From a virus (lineage: Duplodnaviria; Caudoviricetes), in IMG/VR virus record IMGVR_UViG_3300035208_004396: DNA of 64,000 nt, one strand, 5' to 3'. The position numbers and the translations under genes are program-made. Of this stretch, positions 30,608-34,048 are shown in pieces. Numbering within the stretch: position 1 is the first letter of the stretch; the number at the start of each line of letters is the position of its first letter. The notes beneath the pieces are model-generated. The model saw only the letters and a program-made list of their open reading frames with translations. It searched no databases and was not told the origin of the DNA.

Positions 30608-30691
30608 GCCCAGGTGGTGGAATTGGTAGACACTAGGGACTTAAAATCCCTTGGTCGTAAGATCGTGAGGGTTCGATTCCCTCTTTGGGCA
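30608..30691 (+). tRNA. tRNA-Leu(TAA)
   Basis: Full cloverleaf with long variable arm and GTTCGATTC T loop. Confidence 0.95.
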
Positions 30692-30694
30692 CTA

Positions 30695-30765
30695 TAAGGC
30701 GTGGTTTAGCTGCTACGTCTTAGAAATGGAAAACGTTTGAGCTAACAAACGTTTTAGTTTCCATT
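30695..30765 (+). ncRNA. Kissing-loop two-hairpin RNA, copy 1
   Basis: Loops TTAGCT and AGCTAA are exact reverse complements; GAA junction. Confidence 0.7.
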
Positions 30766-30769
30766 AGCT

Positions 30770-30844
30770 ATATTATTCGTATAATTCTGGCAGTACAATC
30801 GCCTATCGGCAGATTGGTATGGGTTCGAATCCCATATAATATAT
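30770..30844 (+). tRNA. tRNA-like RNA with all-A/U acceptor stem and aberrant anticodon arm
   Basis: D arm GTAT/GTAC, T arm ATGGG-TTCGAAT-CCCAT; anticodon arm irregular. Confidence 0.6.
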
Positions 30845-31013
30845 CTTTTAGTTGAAATAAAATAGAGATTAAAAATCCTTGCCATAAACTTCCTAGATCT
30901 ATAAGGCAAAAGATAAAACGATACGTGAATGAATGTGTAATAAGCATAATCTAGTATATTCACATTATATTGTTTAATCCCCCCGTCAAGTTTTACTGGG
31001 TTCTTGACATTTT

Positions 31014-31088
31014 GGCCGAGTAACCGAATTTGGCATAGGTACTTGTTTCAAACACAAGATTTTGTGGGTTCGATTCCCGCCTTGGCCA
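31014..31088 (+). tRNA. tRNA-Leu(CAA), short variable loop
   Basis: CTTGT-TTCAAAC-ACAAG anticodon arm; 5-nt variable loop. Confidence 0.9.
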
Positions 31089-31092
31089 CTAT

Positions 31093-31164
31093 GCCGTTAT
31101 ATGTCAATGGTTAGACGAAAGGACTTTTAATCCTTGGATCCGAGTTCGAGTCTCGGTAACGGCA
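31093..31164 (+). tRNA. tRNA-Lys(TTT)
   Basis: Full cloverleaf. Confidence 0.95.
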
Positions 31165-31447
31165 CTAATTTTCAGGAAAAAAGATAAAAAACCTCGACTG
31201 GATGTAAGTAAAGAGGGGTTTGACCTTTTCAGATTTTAGACGTAAAATCGATAACAAAAGGTTCTTTTTATACTTAATATAATTTAAGATCTCGATTAAG
31301 TTGAAATAAAATAGAGATTACCACCTAAATTTTCTTAGAAGTTTAGGAAAGGCTGAGTGGTTGAGCACTGACCGAGTACCACTGAAATAATAAAAAATGC
31401 AGTTCGGTCATCATTTTATAGGATTGATAACTATTATGGATAAAACA

Positions 31448-31690
31448 ATGAATAAAAATGAATTTGATGAATTATTCAAGGTTCCTGCTAATATGGATTC
31501 AGATTCATATGAGGACTGGATAAGGAAAAAGTGCATCGATCTTCGAAACGGTATTGACTTTATGATTGAGAATATTGAATATTTGGAGGGTGATGCTGGC
31601 GAATTTCCGTCCGAAAGAGAATCTGTATACGATAAATGTTATTCTAGATATCAGGAGTTATTCGATAATTCAACCGAAAATGTAGATTGA
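31448..31690 (+). CDS. Small acidic hypothetical protein
   Basis: ORF within the tRNA region; start 31436 or 31448. Confidence 0.55.
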   Translation: MNKNEFDELFKVPANMDSDSYEDWIRKKCIDLRNGIDFMIENIEYLEGDAGEFPSERESVYDKCYSRYQELFDNSTENVD

Positions 31691-31692
31691 CT

Positions 31693-31902
31693 ATGAAATA
31701 CAATGGCATAGAACTAGTCGATGTAAGTCAGAAGGAATCTATTACAAATGATGATCCCATAGAAATGATCTGTTGGAATGATGGAGATATTCCAGTCAGG
31801 TGTATAGTTTATGCAATAGTTCCGGGAAGTAGATATCCTGTTATTACTGATTGTAATAGATGCATAGTATTTCAACATTGTGCATATAATAACGTTTTTT
31901 AA
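31693..31902 (+). CDS. Small hypothetical protein
   Basis: Follows the previous ORF; P.EM..W.D....HCA pattern. Confidence 0.55.
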   Translation: MKYNGIELVDVSQKESITNDDPIEMICWNDGDIPVRCIVYAIVPGSRYPVITDCNRCIVFQHCAYNNVF

Positions 31903-31970
31903 AGTTACAGGTAAAAAGAATCACTCCACTATAATATGTCGGTTTCTTGAGAAGGTTCTTCCGACATTTA

Positions 31971-32046
31971 GGCCAGGTAGCCGAATTTGGTATAGGCGTG
32001 GCGCCTAGGACGCCATTTTTTGAGGGTTCGAATCCCTTCTTGGCCA
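31971..32046 (+). tRNA. tRNA-Leu(TAG), short variable loop, C33
   Basis: TGGCG-CCTAGGA-CGCCA. Confidence 0.88.
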
Positions 32047-32080
32047 CTTTTAAGCTGGAATAGTTTGATAAATATAAAAA

Positions 32081-32164
32081 GGAGATGTGTGCGAGTTGGT
32101 TTATGCAGGTAATCCTGAAAATTACTGGTCTTATGGCCCGTAGGTTCGAATCCTACCATCTCCT
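32081..32164 (+). tRNA. tRNA-Ser(TGA), C33
   Basis: GTAAT-CCTGAAA-ATTAC; long variable arm. Confidence 0.9.
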
Positions 32165-32168
32165 CTAT

Positions 32169-32250
32169 GGAAGATTACGCTAAAGGTAAGCGGAAGCTTT
32201 GCTAAAGCTTTGAGGCAAAACTCTTATAGGTTCGAGTCCTATATCTTCCT
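32169..32250 (+). tRNA. tRNA-Ser(GCT)
   Basis: Full cloverleaf with long variable arm. Confidence 0.92.
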
Positions 32251-32253
32251 TAC

Positions 32254-32325
32254 TGCCTAGTCGTATAAAAGCAAGTATAATGGACTTTGAATCCATTGGA
32301 CGGGGAGCGTTACCCTGCTAGGCAA
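32254..32325 (+). tRNA. tRNA-Gln(TTG), variant T loop
   Basis: ATGGA-CTTTGAA-TCCAT; T loop AGCGTTA; U1-A72. Confidence 0.85.
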
Positions 32326-32343
32326 GATTTTTAAAAATAATAG

Positions 32344-32414
32344 TTGAGAAATAAGAATTTCTTTTCTATATTATGATCATTGGAAACGAGATTTCCAATC
32401 GCTTATTGAATATT
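32344..32414 (+). promoter_or_regulatory. Sigma70 promoter with boxB/boxA-like leader (copy 3)
   Basis: TTGAGA-17-TATATT, then ATGATCATTGGAAA-CGAGA-TTTCCAATCG and TTATTGAAT; near-duplicate of copy 1. Confidence 0.78.
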
Positions 32415-32415
32415 A

Positions 32416-32486
32416 CGGAATATGGTGTAATGGTAACACAATAGCTTTGCAAGTTATTTTCCCGAGTTCGAATCTCGGTATCTACA
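32416..32486 (+). tRNA. tRNA-Ala(TGC) with poorly paired acceptor stem (possible pseudo-tRNA)
   Basis: D, anticodon and T arms intact; acceptor CGGAATA/TATCTAC has 3 mismatches. Confidence 0.6.
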
Positions 32487-32490
32487 CTAT

Positions 32491-32572
32491 GCTAGCGATG
32501 CGGAATTGGTACCGCCCCTGACTGTAGATCAGGCGCCTTCGGGCTATGTGGGTTCGAATCCTTCCGCTAGCA
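32491..32572 (+). tRNA. tRNA-Tyr(GTA)
   Basis: Cloverleaf with GCC-TTCG-GGC variable arm. Confidence 0.92.
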
Positions 32573-32575
32573 CTA

Positions 32576-32641
32576 TGAGATTGAATTTGACGGTTCTATC
32601 TCAGAAATGGTTATTATTTTCGTCAAAAAATAATGACCGTT
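32576..32641 (+). ncRNA. Kissing-loop two-hairpin RNA, copy 2
   Basis: Loops TTGACG and CGTCAA are exact reverse complements; same GAA-ATGG junction as copy 1. Confidence 0.7.
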
Positions 32642-32654
32642 ATTATAGTAAAGT

Positions 32655-32727
32655 GACTTCTATAGTATAATTGGTATTACGTGCCACCGTTGCGATGGAG
32701 ATATGTGTTCGAACCACATTAGAAGTC
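32655..32727 (+). tRNA. tRNA-His-like body (G-1:C73) with aberrant anticodon arm
   Basis: 8-bp acceptor GACTTCTA/TAGAAGTC; anticodon region CCA-CCGTTGCGA-TGG has no GTG. Confidence 0.6.
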
Positions 32728-32858
32728 CTAATTTTATTATCTTTTTGGGCATGCTTAGCTGATAACAACATGAAAATCTATCTGATCAAATAATATCTGA
32801 ATAAGCATCGGCGAAAATATGCAACGGGTAGAATAATAAGTTATTTTTTAGGAGAAGC

Positions 32859-32929
32859 TTATGAAATGGCAGCTACCATTTAAAGACTATTAAAGTCTGC
32901 AAAGGTTCGAATTCTTTCTTGCACACTTA
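32859..32929 (+). ncRNA. Second 23S H43/H44-like RNA, with a tRNA T-arm in place of the H44 loop
   Basis: AGCT..GCAGCTACCATTTAAAGA..GC-[AAAGGTTCGAATTCTTT]-GCACAC. Confidence 0.6.
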
Positions 32930-33030
32930 TATAAAAATCCCATACTTAAATGGGCTATATTGATACAATTGGCAGTATAGATAGCGAGAGTTGGGACTTA
33001 GCTCTAAAATAAGAGGTACCAGATTTTTAT

Positions 33031-33195: not shown

Positions 33196-33291
33196 ACATC
33201 ATCATGCTGCAACGGGTCTTATAAGCCTGTACCCAACAACAAATATGCGCGGCTGGTCTTGGGGCACCGGGTTCGATTCCTGGATGATGTA
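33196..33291 (+). tRNA. D-armless tRNA-like RNA, anticodon TAT (Ile)
   Basis: Acceptor ACATCAT/ATGATGT, anticodon arm CGGGT-CTTATAA-GCCTG, T arm intact, 37-nt variable region. Confidence 0.75.
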
Positions 33292-33315
33292 CTAAGTTTA
33301 GTTATAATCCATTTT

Positions 33316-33388
33316 GACCCCTTGGCGAAATAAGGAACGCGACTGTCTGCAAAACAGTTATGATATGGTGCAATTCCATAAGAGGTCT
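33316..33388 (+). tRNA. tRNA-Cys(GCA)
   Basis: ACTGT-CTGCAAA-ACAGT; U73; variant T loop TGCAATT. Confidence 0.88.
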
Positions 33389-33408
33389 TTTTAATATATA
33401 ATCCATTA

Positions 33409-33482
33409 CGGTCTGTAGCTCAGTACAGTAGAGTACTGGTTTTGGGAACCAGATGTCGTGAGAGCGAAGCTCACCAGACCGA
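33409..33482 (+). tRNA. tRNA-Pro(TGG), variant T loop
   Basis: CTGGT-TTTGGGA-ACCAG; T loop AGCGAAG. Confidence 0.88.
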
Positions 33483-33562
33483 TAATAAATAGAGCTTCTA
33501 CTTTTAAGTTTTGAAGAGCACTTCGAAAAACTCTTTAGGTTGATTAACCTTTGAACGATCAC

Positions 33563-33605
33563 TGTTAGGAATGGTTTACCGGAGTTCGATTCTTCGACCT
33601 AGCAA
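33563..33605 (+). ncRNA. tRNA minihelix-like RNA (acceptor + D-loop-like linker + T arm)
   Basis: TGTTAGG/CCTAGCA, AATGGT linker, CGGAG-TTCGATT-CTTCG. Confidence 0.45.
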
Positions 33606-33840
33606 TATTAAGAATAAAAGCGCAAAATGTGATAAAATCAAGTTTATCATTTCCGATATGTTTAATGATTTCGGCGTTTTTATTTTTTTTAACTATATTA
33701 AGTCCCTTATATAGTGTCCAAGAACAACACTATATTAAAAGTCTGCCGAAAAAGCCTAATGATTATTACTTGGTAATCTAAGGCGATCTGATACACCACG
33801 AGGCTAGATTTAGAGGTATATACGGTGAGATCAGAATTAT

Positions 33841-33915
33841 ACTCGATTAGCTCAAGTTGGTCTAGAGCAGCTGCGTCAGGCAGCAGGGTCATTGGTTCAA
33901 ATCCAATATCGAGTA
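33841..33915 (+). tRNA. tRNA-like RNA with shortened anticodon loop centred on TCA
   Basis: Perfect acceptor, D and T arms; GCTGC-GTCAG-GCAGC. Confidence 0.7.
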
Positions 33916-33920
33916 CTTTT

Positions 33921-34000
33921 GCTCTCGTAGCCACATCGGTCTTCTAAACCGCTAAGTGTAAATGGAGCTGTAAATACAGGTTCGATCCCTGTCGAGAGTA
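33921..34000 (+). tRNA. D-armless tRNA-like RNA, anticodon TCT (Arg)
   Basis: Acceptor GCTCTCG/CGAGAGT, CGGT-CTTCTAA-ACCG, T arm intact, long variable region. Confidence 0.75.
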
Positions 34001-34048
34001 CTAAAAGATATTTATATTTCTTAAATTTAACAAAAACAAAGGAATCTA

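What the first reader, a model, noticed from the sequence alone, without database searches (positions are those of the whole stretch)
33196..34000. Two D-armless tRNA-like RNAs (Ile-UAU, Arg-UCU) where a substitute helix replaces the D arm
Seen: both have good acceptor, anticodon and T arms but only a 9-10-nt connector in place of the D arm, plus a long variable region. In the Ile RNA the connector GCTGC can pair with GCGGC in the loop of a CCCAA/TTGGG variable hairpin (a pseudoknot). In the Arg RNA the connector TAGC(CA) can pair with (TGGA)GCTG. Both end in A-CTA like their normal neighbours. Established: AUA and AGA are codons commonly limited in bacteria, and AUA normally needs lysidine-modified CAU. 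Inference: a non-cloverleaf tRNA class that standard finders would probably miss, either decoding AT-rich phage codons or resisting/decoying host tRNases.
Basis: partly seen in the sequence, partly recalled or inferred. Interest (0 to 1): 0.8.

Follow-up and report, generated by a model that had tools for sequence, protein, structure and literature searches.

The report
Two rewired non-cloverleaf phage tRNAs
Inside the tRNA cluster of an uncultured AT-rich phage lie two genes that look like arginine (AGA) and isoleucine (AUA) tRNAs, but their D-arm is assembled from strands placed before and after the anticodon arm; I found no paper describing this widespread, conserved design, and gene finders miss it.

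Summary
Both elements are real: Ile-UAU at 33196-33291 and Arg-UCU at 33921-34000. ARAGORN and the Rfam tRNA model miss both. They are not decayed tRNAs and not truly D-armless. Each belongs to a large family, mostly in viral contigs, in which a D-stem-like helix forms between the short 5' connector and a strand lying after the anticodon arm, next to a conserved GG loop.

- **Arg element:** a nested fold. Two helices (TAGC/GCTG and CAC/GTG) covary across 17 sequences.
- **Ile element:** a pseudoknot. GCTGC pairs with GCGGC inside the CCCAA/TTGGG hairpin. All six columns of this helix covary across 23 other members.
- **Membership:** models built without the window sequences recover the elements at 89 and 52 bits.
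- **Identity hints:** Arg-type members keep GGA (A20, an ArgRS identity element). Ile-type members keep GGU and A73.
- **Substitution:** in tRNA arrays the rewired UCU form and a canonical tRNA-Arg(UCU) almost never co-occur (3/54 versus 29/53).
- **Codon use:** AGA and AUA are heavily used here.

They most likely act as working tRNAs, but expression and charging are untested. Earlier notes of this scan reported the same family on other DNA. Nine literature searches found no description.

The parts
33196..33291 (+). Rewired tRNA-like gene, anticodon UAU (reads AUA); pseudoknotted 'type D' (my label), 96 nt including discriminator A33291; followed by CTA at 33292-33294
   Evidence: Parsed. A model built from 23 other members scores it 51.9 bits, E 1.3e-13, full length. 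Missed by ARAGORN and by the Rfam tRNA model.
33196..33203 (+). Ile element, acceptor 5' strand ACATCATC; pairs with 33283-33290 GATGATGT (8 bp; a 7/5 reading is also possible)
   Evidence: Acceptor columns covary in the family.
33206..33210 (+). Ile element, 5' strand of the pseudoknot (D-stem-like) helix, GCTGC
   Evidence: Pairs with 33249-33253. All 6 family columns change on both sides and 91.5% of cells are paired. cmsearch aligns it in register.
33213..33229 (+). Ile element, anticodon arm CGGGT / CTTATAA / GCCTG; anticodon TAT at 33220-33222
   Evidence: The loop is invariant in the family.
33232..33236 (+). Ile element, 5' strand CCCAA of the variable-region hairpin; pairs with TTGGG at 33259-33263
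   Evidence: Family test of own against swapped partners: 4.19 versus 3.35, 0 of 5000 permutations as high.
33249..33253 (+). Ile element, 3' strand of the pseudoknot helix, GCGGC, inside the hairpin loop
33254..33258 (+). Ile element, GG loop TGGTC (candidate G18-G19 equivalent followed by U)
   Evidence: TGG is invariant and the next base is at least 90% T in the family alignment. In the genome-contig scan, where the search pattern allowed A or T after TGG, 7 of 8 scorable unique UAU members had T.
33259..33263 (+). Ile element, 3' strand TTGGG of the variable-region hairpin
33268..33282 (+). Ile element, T arm CGGG / TTCGATT / CCTG
33921..34000 (+). Rewired tRNA-like gene, anticodon UCU (reads AGA); nested 'type A' (my label), 80 nt including discriminator A34000; followed by CTA at 34001-34003
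   Evidence: A model built from 16 other members scores it 89.0 bits, E 2.8e-21. Canonical tRNAs of the window score 23 bits or less. Missed by ARAGORN. Rfam gives only tRNA-Sec at 22.5 bits, below threshold.
33928..33931 (+). Arg element, helix h1 5' strand TAGC; pairs with GCTG at 33967-33970
   Evidence: 97.1% of cells paired. Pair types GC 13 / AU 3 and UA 8 / CG 7 / UG 2.
33932..33934 (+). Arg element, helix h2 5' strand CAC; pairs with GTG at 33956-33958
   Evidence: 94.1% of cells paired. Pair types GC 7 / AU 6 / CG 4, and CG 11 / GC 2 / AU 1 / UA 1 / UG 1.
33936..33952 (+). Arg element, anticodon arm TCGGT / CTTCTAA / ACCGC; anticodon TCT at 33943-33945; the top pair is a U-C mismatch
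   Evidence: This is the only unpaired cell in that column among 17 sequences.
33956..33958 (+). Arg element, helix h2 3' strand GTG
33959..33966 (+). Arg element, GG loop TAAATGGA, bulged between the 3' strands of h2 and h1 (candidate G18, G19, A20)
   Evidence: T39, A40, G44 and A46 (element numbering) are invariant in 17 sequences.
33967..33970 (+). Arg element, helix h1 3' strand GCTG
33976..33992 (+). Arg element, T arm ACAGG / TTCGATC / CCTGT

Best explanation
Both genes most likely encode working elongator tRNAs: tRNA-Arg(UCU) for AGA and, probably, tRNA-Ile(UAU) for AUA. They would be transcribed and processed with the neighbouring tRNAs and given CCA by the host enzyme. They appear to keep the parts that translation needs: a 12-bp acceptor/T branch, a T loop GTTCRA, a 7-nt anticodon loop with U33 and A37, and a GG loop that could dock on the T loop. 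The D domain is wired differently. The strand directly 5' of the anticodon arm pairs with a strand that lies 3' of that arm, and the GG loop follows this second strand.

In the Arg RNA the chain then pairs back to the bases next to the acceptor stem, giving two stacked nested helices with the GG loop as a bulge. In the Ile RNA it pairs instead with the bases just after the anticodon arm, giving an H-type pseudoknot.

Shown here: the helices, their covariation, family membership, and mutual exclusion with canonical tRNAs of the same anticodon. Inferred: an L-shaped fold, charging by ArgRS and IleRS, and use on the ribosome.
For: 1. Conserved architecture with compensatory change.
- Arg type: a MAFFT alignment of 17 sequences gives 97% of cells paired for h1 and 94% for h2, with double changes; 0 of 500 shuffles reach the observed values, and slid controls pair 37-44%.
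- Ile type: a MAFFT alignment of 23 sequences without the window gives 6 of 6 pseudoknot pairs changed on both sides and 91.5% paired.
- Alignment-free test on 24 UAU members: own against swapped partners scores 5.83 versus 4.25 for the pseudoknot and 4.19 versus 3.35 for the hairpin, each 0 of 5000.

2. Membership. Models built without the window recover the elements at 89.0 bits (E 2.8e-21) and 51.9 bits (E 1.3e-13). Canonical tRNAs in the window score 23 bits or less.

3. tRNA hallmarks are invariant: the anticodon loops, GGTTC.A..CC in the T loop, and the GG of the loop.

4. Isotype-specific bases.
- With a search pattern that allowed either base, GGA occurs in 14 of 16 unique UCU members and GGT in 7 of 8 scorable UAU members.
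- A20 is an established ArgRS identity element in E. coli (own knowledge).
- The discriminator is A in 24 of 24 UAU members.

5. Substitution. Among loci with 6 or more ARAGORN tRNAs, a canonical tRNA-Arg(UCU) accompanies the rewired one in 3 of 54, against 29 of 53 loci that lack a rewired one (Fisher 1e-8). For UAU the figures are 1 of 11 against 47 of 96 (p 0.02).

6. Local context. The window's cluster holds no canonical Arg or Ile tRNA, while AGA is 48% of Arg codons and AUA is 38% of Ile codons (32.8 per 1000).

7. Gene spacing. The Ile element starts 7 nt after tRNA-Asn. The Arg element starts 4 nt after the UCA tRNA. Both have the same A-CTA end as about half the neighbours.
Against:
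- The window's Arg copy has a U-C mismatch at the top of the anticodon stem, the only such case among 17.
- The window's Ile copy is the longest member (96 nt). Its pseudoknot is 5 bp with one G-U pair followed by an A-C mismatch.
- On its own a 5-bp match between a 10-mer and a 37-mer is not significant. Only its position within the family pattern makes it so.
- The proposed folds are not the minimum-energy folds: Arg -19.7 against -21.0 kcal/mol. For Ile only its two nested sub-folds could be scored: -21.0 with the pseudoknot helix alone and -21.9 with the hairpin alone, against an MFE of -26.9. The pseudoknot as a whole cannot be scored.
- CCA is not encoded.
- An unmodified U34 in a UAU anticodon would risk reading AUG, and the amino-acid identity of the UAU RNA is not established.
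- The exclusivity counts come from partial contig windows chosen by my own search patterns.
Confidence: 0.65

Rival explanations
1. They are tRNA mimics that are not used in decoding. They would act as decoys or inhibitors for host tRNA-targeting nucleases, synthetases or modification enzymes, with the rewired core preventing productive use or cleavage.
For: Phage tRNAs are known to counter tRNA-cleaving defences (PMC11555353 and PMC12409363, seen by title and abstract only). A non-canonical core would plausibly change recognition by such enzymes. Nothing here shows charging.
Against: A decoy should be carried alongside a canonical tRNA, not instead of it. The rewired UCU form and a canonical tRNA-Arg(UCU) are almost mutually exclusive in arrays (3/54 against 29/53). 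The acceptor/T branch stays at 12 bp. The discriminator and the A20-like or U20-like base track the anticodon, which is what synthetase recognition predicts.
Confidence: 0.15
2. The UAU RNA is charged with an amino acid other than isoleucine, for example serine through its long variable hairpin as shown for allo-tRNAs, and so recodes or mistranslates AUA.
For: The family has the 8/4 acceptor/T split and a long variable region. (8/4) allo-tRNAs with UAU anticodons are among the commonest allo-tRNAs (Mukai et al., PMC5389517). Canonical-D-arm 8/4 UAU tRNAs with long variable arms also turned up in the viral scan.
Against: AUA makes up 38% of Ile codons in this phage, so recoding it would be costly. 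The discriminator is A in 24 of 24 members, as in bacterial tRNA-Ile (own knowledge). The variable hairpin is tied up in a pseudoknot, unlike a free class II variable arm. A GAU (Ile) anticodon also occurs in a rewired design with the same GGT loop.
Confidence: 0.07
3. They are decayed tRNA pseudogenes, and the apparent helices are chance.
For: The same cluster holds several damaged tRNA-like bodies (Rfam-only hits at 30770, 32420 and 32656). The window's copies carry small blemishes.
Against: The same architecture recurs in more than 100 independent viral, metagenome and MAG sequences, with compensatory changes in every helix. The reversed-sequence control gave no hits. Models that exclude the window score both elements far above canonical tRNAs.
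Confidence: 0.03

Closest known systems
Canonical bacterial and phage tRNA-Arg(UCU) and tRNA-Ile (class I cloverleaf, Rfam RF00005)
   Same: Acceptor stem plus discriminator; 12-bp acceptor/T branch; T loop GTTCRA; 5-bp anticodon stem with a 7-nt loop (U33, A37); a GG motif followed by A (Arg) or U (Ile); position inside a phage tRNA array; the same anticodons that phages commonly supply.
   Different: There is no D hairpin between the acceptor and anticodon arms, only 8-9 nt. The D-stem-like helix is made with a strand 3' of the anticodon arm, and the GG loop lies after the anticodon arm. Both elements score below the RF00005 threshold, and ARAGORN misses them.
(8/4) allo-tRNAs, including allo-tRNA(UAU) (Mukai et al. 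2017, PMC5389517)
   Same: The Ile-type family has an 8-bp acceptor stem with a 4-bp T stem, a long region between the anticodon and T arms, a UAU anticodon, and occurs in phages and in Acidobacteria-type contigs.
   Different: Allo-tRNAs are cloverleaves with a tRNA-Sec-like D stem-loop (long stem, tetraloop) and a free variable arm. Here there is no D hairpin, and the variable hairpin's loop supplies one strand of the D-like helix, forming a pseudoknot.
Mitochondrial D-armless tRNAs (for example metazoan tRNA-Ser(AGY) and nematode tRNAs; review PMC7609411)
   Same: Functional precedent for tRNAs that lack a D hairpin; only a short connector lies between the acceptor and anticodon stems.
   Different: The mitochondrial forms are shortened (about 55-65 nt), have a simple replacement loop, often lack the GG/T-loop contact, and work with adapted mitochondrial factors (own knowledge). 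The phage RNAs are longer than normal (80-96 nt), rebuild a helix and keep GG and a canonical T loop. They would presumably have to work with ordinary bacterial factors.
tRNA-Sec (Rfam RF01852)
   Same: It is the best Rfam match of the Arg element (22.5 bits). It also has a long extra region and a non-7/5 acceptor branch.
   Different: The score is far below the threshold of 47. The anticodon is UCU, not UCA, and there is no 6-bp D stem-loop.

Membership tests
Canonical cloverleaf tRNA (Rfam RF00005) | 7-bp acceptor stem with discriminator, and a 5-bp T stem with a GTTCRA loop (12-bp branch) | tested here: met
   Both elements have it. The Ile element can be read as 8/4 or 7/5.
Canonical cloverleaf tRNA (Rfam RF00005) | Anticodon arm: 5-bp stem and 7-nt loop with U33 and a purine at 37 | tested here: met
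   CUUAUAA and CUUCUAA. The Arg stem has one U-C mismatch at its top pair.
Canonical cloverleaf tRNA (Rfam RF00005) | D stem-loop hairpin between the acceptor and anticodon arms | tested here: not met
   Only 8-9 nt lie between the two stems.
Canonical cloverleaf tRNA (Rfam RF00005) | Score at or above the family's gathering threshold (29 bits) | tested here: not met
   Neither element gets an RF00005 hit at E up to 10, while 17 neighbours score 38.8-67.3 bits. ARAGORN finds neither.
Canonical cloverleaf tRNA (Rfam RF00005) | Aminoacylation and use in translation | not testable with these tools
   Indirect support only: isotype-specific bases and exclusivity with canonical tRNAs of the same anticodon.
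Rewired tRNA-Arg(UCU), nested 'type A' (defined here; also noted earlier in this scan) | Helix h1 between the 4 nt next to the acceptor stem and the 4 nt after the GGA loop | tested here: met
   TAGC/GCTG in the window; 97.1% paired with double changes across 17 sequences.
Rewired tRNA-Arg(UCU), nested 'type A' (defined here; also noted earlier in this scan) | Helix h2 between the next 3 connector nt and the 3 nt preceding UAA-N-UGGA | tested here: met
   CAC/GTG in the window; 94.1% paired; GC 7 / AU 6 / CG 4 at the middle pair.
Rewired tRNA-Arg(UCU), nested 'type A' (defined here; also noted earlier in this scan) | Significant score against a covariance model built from other members only | tested here: met
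   89.0 bits, E 2.8e-21, full length.
Rewired pseudoknotted 8/4 tRNA(UAU), 'type D' (defined here; also noted earlier in this scan) | 5-6 bp helix between the connector and the strand immediately 5' of UGGU | tested here: met
   GCTGC/GCGGC, directly followed by TGGTC. In the family, 6 of 6 pairs change on both sides.
Rewired pseudoknotted 8/4 tRNA(UAU), 'type D' (defined here; also noted earlier in this scan) | Variable-region hairpin that encloses that strand and the GG loop | tested here: met
   CCCAA/TTGGG. Family test of own against swapped partners: 0 of 5000 permutations as high. The columns were not in register in MAFFT, so there are no per-pair counts.
Rewired pseudoknotted 8/4 tRNA(UAU), 'type D' (defined here; also noted earlier in this scan) | Significant score against a covariance model built from other members only | tested here: met
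   51.9 bits, E 1.3e-13, full length.
(8/4) allo-tRNA (Mukai et al. 2017) | 8-bp acceptor stem with a 4-bp T stem | tested here: inconclusive
   The window's copy fits both 8/4 and 7/5. Most family members fit only 8/4.
(8/4) allo-tRNA (Mukai et al. 2017) | tRNA-Sec-like D stem-loop (long stem, tetraloop) in a cloverleaf | tested here: not met
   There is no D hairpin. The feature is described in PMC5389517.
Mitochondrial D-armless tRNA | Shortened tRNA with a simple D-replacement loop and no rebuilt helix | tested here: not met
   The elements are 80 and 96 nt and have covarying replacement helices.

The most novel reading that the evidence does not exclude
Both RNAs are charged, ribosome-active tRNAs whose D domain is topologically permuted, in two different ways within one phage. 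The design has spread among phages because it keeps the L-shape that synthetases, EF-Tu and the ribosome require while escaping host enzymes that recognise or cut the canonical D-arm or core, such as tRNA-targeting defence nucleases. As far as I could find, these would be the first natural non-cloverleaf elongator tRNAs working with a bacterial translation apparatus.
Probability: 0.25. Interest if true: 0.92.

Novelty: new variant of a known kind. Interest (0 to 1): 0.8.

Why it matters
tRNAs that serve bacterial ribosomes are taught as universal cloverleaves; the accepted exceptions are mitochondrial. A large, conserved set of phage tRNA genes with a re-threaded D domain would matter in four ways.
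- The L-shape could be reached by more than one chain topology using ordinary bacterial factors.
- Phage tRNA inventories, and the codon-usage and host-prediction analyses built on them, systematically miss Arg(UCU) and Ile(UAU) genes. ARAGORN missed 99 of 102 UCU and 84 of 91 UAU elements here.
- It would give a concrete, testable candidate for how phages might shield their own tRNAs from host tRNA-targeting immunity.
- It would offer natural scaffolds for orthogonal tRNA engineering.

This window is a useful case because it carries both topologies side by side. It was the only one of 447 loci examined that did so.

Tried and rejected
- **Phage relatives through the tail sheath protein.** Only two viral contigs matched, at 44% identity, and neither held tRNAs.
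- **Exact anticodon-arm pattern of the Ile element.** It hit 17 viral loci. All were canonical tRNAs or coding sequence.
- **blastn of the Ile element against cultured phages.** Nothing meaningful came back.
- **MAFFT alignment including the window's Ile element (A2).** The helices were out of register, so it was not used for counts. Alignment A3, without the window, was in register for the pseudoknot except for one row.
- **Whole-genome look-up.** No genome is held for this window.
- **Is the rewired Arg(UCU) the only UCU tRNA in Acidobacteria MAGs that carry it?** A loose pattern gave only noise. A tighter one showed canonical-looking UCU tRNAs elsewhere in G001, G004 and G005, so this gives no argument from necessity. 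The MAG copies all sit in dense tRNA arrays of 9-22 genes per 8 kb, which look like phage or mobile arrays.
- **Intron-containing or circularly permuted tRNA gene.** Rejected, because the acceptor strands are at the two ends in normal order and no excision would yield a cloverleaf.
Rejected, because those bases are conserved and unpaired, and CAC pairs with GTG instead.
- **Literature.** Nine full-text searches and two papers read found no description of this design.
Full report
**Context.** The window is about 30% G+C. It encodes a tail sheath, a family B DNA polymerase and a topoisomerase II/IV A subunit. It has no close cultured relative: the best phage hits to the topoisomerase are below 30% identity. 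No whole genome is held for it. It is therefore part of an uncultured large myovirus. Positions 30.6-34.6 kb hold a dense tRNA cluster on the plus strand. ARAGORN finds 13 tRNAs there, and the Rfam tRNA model adds four weaker ones.

**Observation.**
- The Ile element spans 33196-33291. It has an acceptor stem ACATCATC/GATGATGT, a 9-nt connector, an anticodon arm with loop CUUAUAA, a 38-nt region holding the CCCAA/TTGGG hairpin, a T arm with loop TTCGATT and discriminator A.
- The Arg element spans 33921-34000. It has a 7-bp acceptor stem, an 8-nt connector TAGCCACA, a loop CUUCUAA, a 23-nt region, a T arm and discriminator A.
- Both are followed by CTA, as are about 7 of 16 neighbouring tRNAs.
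- ARAGORN reports neither. Rfam gives the Arg element only a tRNA-Sec hit at 22.5 bits (threshold 47) and gives the Ile element no plus-strand hit.

**Relatives of the Arg element.** blastn against cultured phages found unannotated homologues. Pseudomonas phage Boevelstad matches at 89% over 63 nt. Further matches include the 121Q group, PAK_P2-like phages and a 635-kb uncultured phage. In 121Q the element is annotated as tRNA-Leu(taa), which does not fit its CUUCUAA loop.

**Fold of the Arg element.** The window's copy belongs to a subgroup I call type A. A plain MAFFT alignment of 17 members supports two helices that the cloverleaf lacks.
- h1 joins the four bases next to the acceptor stem to the four bases after a conserved UGGA (TAGC/GCTG in the window). 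It is 97.1% paired, with GC 13 / AU 3 and UA 8 / CG 7 / UG 2 at its variable pairs.
- h2 joins the next three connector bases to the three bases before UAA-N-UGGA (CAC/GTG). It is 94.1% paired, with GC 7 / AU 6 / CG 4 at its middle pair.
- None of 500 shuffles reached the observed values, and slid controls paired only 37-44%.
- The fold is nested: acceptor, h1, h2, anticodon arm, then the GG loop as a bulge between the 3' strands of h2 and h1, five more bases, and the T arm.

The suggested extension of h1 into TGGA conflicts with the conserved, unpaired GGA.

**Relatives and fold of the Ile element.** Sequence similarity alone found nothing. Pattern scans that fixed only the anticodon loop, a TGG (TGGT in the metagenome scan) and the T loop found relatives in viral contigs and metagenomes. 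Together they gave 24 unique UAU members of what I call type D, most with an 8-bp acceptor stem and a 4-bp T stem.
- In each member, 5-7 connector bases pair with the bases just 5' of UGGU.
- That strand and the GG loop sit inside the loop of a hairpin made from the bases right after the anticodon arm and right before the T arm.
- There are 21 distinct connector strands among the 24 members.
- Own partners beat swapped partners for both helices: 5.83 against 4.25 and 4.19 against 3.35, each 0 of 5000 permutations. A mixed UCU and UAU set gave the same result.
- In a MAFFT alignment of 23 members without the window, all six pseudoknot columns change on both sides and 91.5% of cells pair.

**Formal membership.** Covariance models built without the window's sequences find the Ile element at 51.9 bits (E 1.3e-13) and the Arg element at 89.0 bits (E 2.8e-21), both full length. 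Canonical tRNAs of the window score at most 23 bits. A strict scanner for the architecture gave 53 unique hits in the loci and none in the reversed sequences.

**Evidence that they work as tRNAs.**
- The anticodon loops, the T loop and the GG of the loop are invariant.
- The base after GG follows the anticodon. With a pattern that allowed either base, GGA occurred in 14 of 16 unique UCU members and GGT in 7 of 8 scorable UAU members. A20 is an established ArgRS identity element in E. coli (own knowledge).
- The discriminator is A in all 24 UAU members.
- In loci with at least six ARAGORN tRNAs, a canonical tRNA-Arg(UCU) accompanies a rewired one in 3 of 54, but is present in 29 of 53 loci without a rewired one (Fisher 1e-8). 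For UAU the figures are 1 of 11 against 47 of 96 (p 0.02). The rewired genes therefore replace the canonical ones rather than add to them.
- The window's cluster has no canonical Arg or Ile tRNA, while AGA is 48% of Arg codons and AUA is 38% of Ile codons.
- Rewired UCG and ACG (Arg), GAU (Ile) and GUA (Tyr) members also appeared in the flanks.

**Distribution.** A scan of prokaryotic genome contigs also found members in MAG contigs assigned to Pyrinomonadaceae, Planctomycetota and other groups. Where ARAGORN found any tRNAs around them, they formed dense arrays of up to 22 genes per 8 kb, and canonical UCU tRNAs exist elsewhere in at least some of those genomes. I read these as phage or mobile tRNA arrays, not core host genes. 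Among the 447 loci examined, only this window carries both a rewired UCU and a rewired UAU gene.

**How it probably works (inference).** In both types the strand directly 5' of the anticodon stem runs into that stem, as positions 22-26 do in a cloverleaf. Its partner strand runs away from the anticodon stem and ends in the GG loop, as positions 10-19 do. The same helix-plus-loop could therefore occupy the usual D-domain space with the chain threaded in a different order. The GG loop could still dock on the T loop to form the elbow. The 12-bp acceptor/T branch that RNase P, the CCA-adding enzyme and EF-Tu read is unchanged. Why the order changed is open. Escape from host enzymes that recognise the canonical D arm is attractive but untested.

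**Weak points.**
- There are no expression, charging or structure data.
- The window's Arg copy has a U-C mismatch at the top of the anticodon stem.
- The window's Ile copy is the longest member, and its pseudoknot is only 5 bp including one G-U pair.
- The proposed folds are not minimum-energy folds.
- The amino-acid identity of the UAU RNA is not proven.
- The exclusivity statistics rest on partial, pattern-selected loci.

**Comparison with what is known.**
- Allo-tRNAs share the 8/4 branch and the UAU anticodon but are cloverleaves with a tRNA-Sec-like D hairpin (PMC5389517).
- Mitochondrial D-armless tRNAs are shortened and do not rebuild a helix (PMC7609411).
- Nine full-text searches found no description of this design.
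- Earlier notes of this scan describe the same family on other DNA. I used them as a lead and re-derived the helices, statistics and membership here.

**Verdict.** The elements are members of an apparently undescribed class of rewired, mostly phage-borne tRNAs, and most likely function as Arg(AGA) and Ile(AUA) decoders.

Noticed in passing
window 33841-33916 (+): ARAGORN calls a 'tRNA-SeC' with anticodon UCA, and Rfam tRNA scores it 46 bits. It lies 4 nt upstream of the Arg element. Its anticodon arm reads GCTGC-GTCAG-GCAGC. That is either a 5-nt loop or a 7-nt loop with G at position 33, which is odd for an opal-reading or Trp tRNA. Long ORFs read normally under table 11, so there is no obvious TGA recoding.
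   Followed up: no
window 30770-30843, 32254-32325, 32420-32481, 32656-32727 (+): Four further tRNA-like bodies pass the Rfam tRNA threshold (39-49 bits), but ARAGORN rejects them. One matches only model positions 5-66 and has a broken acceptor stem. Their status, damaged or unusual, is open.
   Followed up: no
window 33534-33604 (+): Model R1 gives a weak hit here (13.7 bits, E 0.13), in the unexplained 360-nt gap between tRNA-Pro and the UCA tRNA. The stretch contains a T-loop-like GGAGTTCGATTCTTC.
   Followed up: no
window 30608-33000, 3' ends of the tRNAs: About half of the cluster's tRNAs are followed by CTA after the discriminator instead of CCA (Leu-UAA, Leu-CAA, Lys, Ser-UGA, Tyr and others). 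This may be a shared 3' processing signal.
   Followed up: partly
L021:1489-1570 (Escherichia phage 121Q, KM507819 73585-73666): The rewired Arg(UCU) homologue is annotated in GenBank as tRNA-Leu(taa). This looks like a misannotation caused by forcing a cloverleaf onto it.
   Followed up: partly
L136, L139, L144, L168 (viral contigs): These are 8/4 UAU tRNAs that do have a D hairpin (GCAC-NGGT-GTGC) and a long variable arm. They are allo-tRNA(UAU)-like genes in phage contigs, distinct from the pseudoknotted type.
   Followed up: no
L318, L319, L366, L372, L392 (Planctomycetota MAG contigs); L310, L314, L325, L337 and others (Pyrinomonadaceae and Acidobacteriota MAG contigs): Nearly identical rewired UAU or UCU genes recur across several MAGs of one lineage, always inside arrays of 9-22 tRNA genes. 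They could be conserved phage or mobile arrays binned with the host, or host-encoded arrays.
   Followed up: partly
L097:12513-12595 and L128 (minus strand, reverse-complement offset 2586): Rewired designs also occur with anticodons GAU (Ile, with a GGT loop) and GUA (Tyr). UCG and ACG (Arg) occur in other loci. The design is therefore not limited to UCU and UAU.
   Followed up: no
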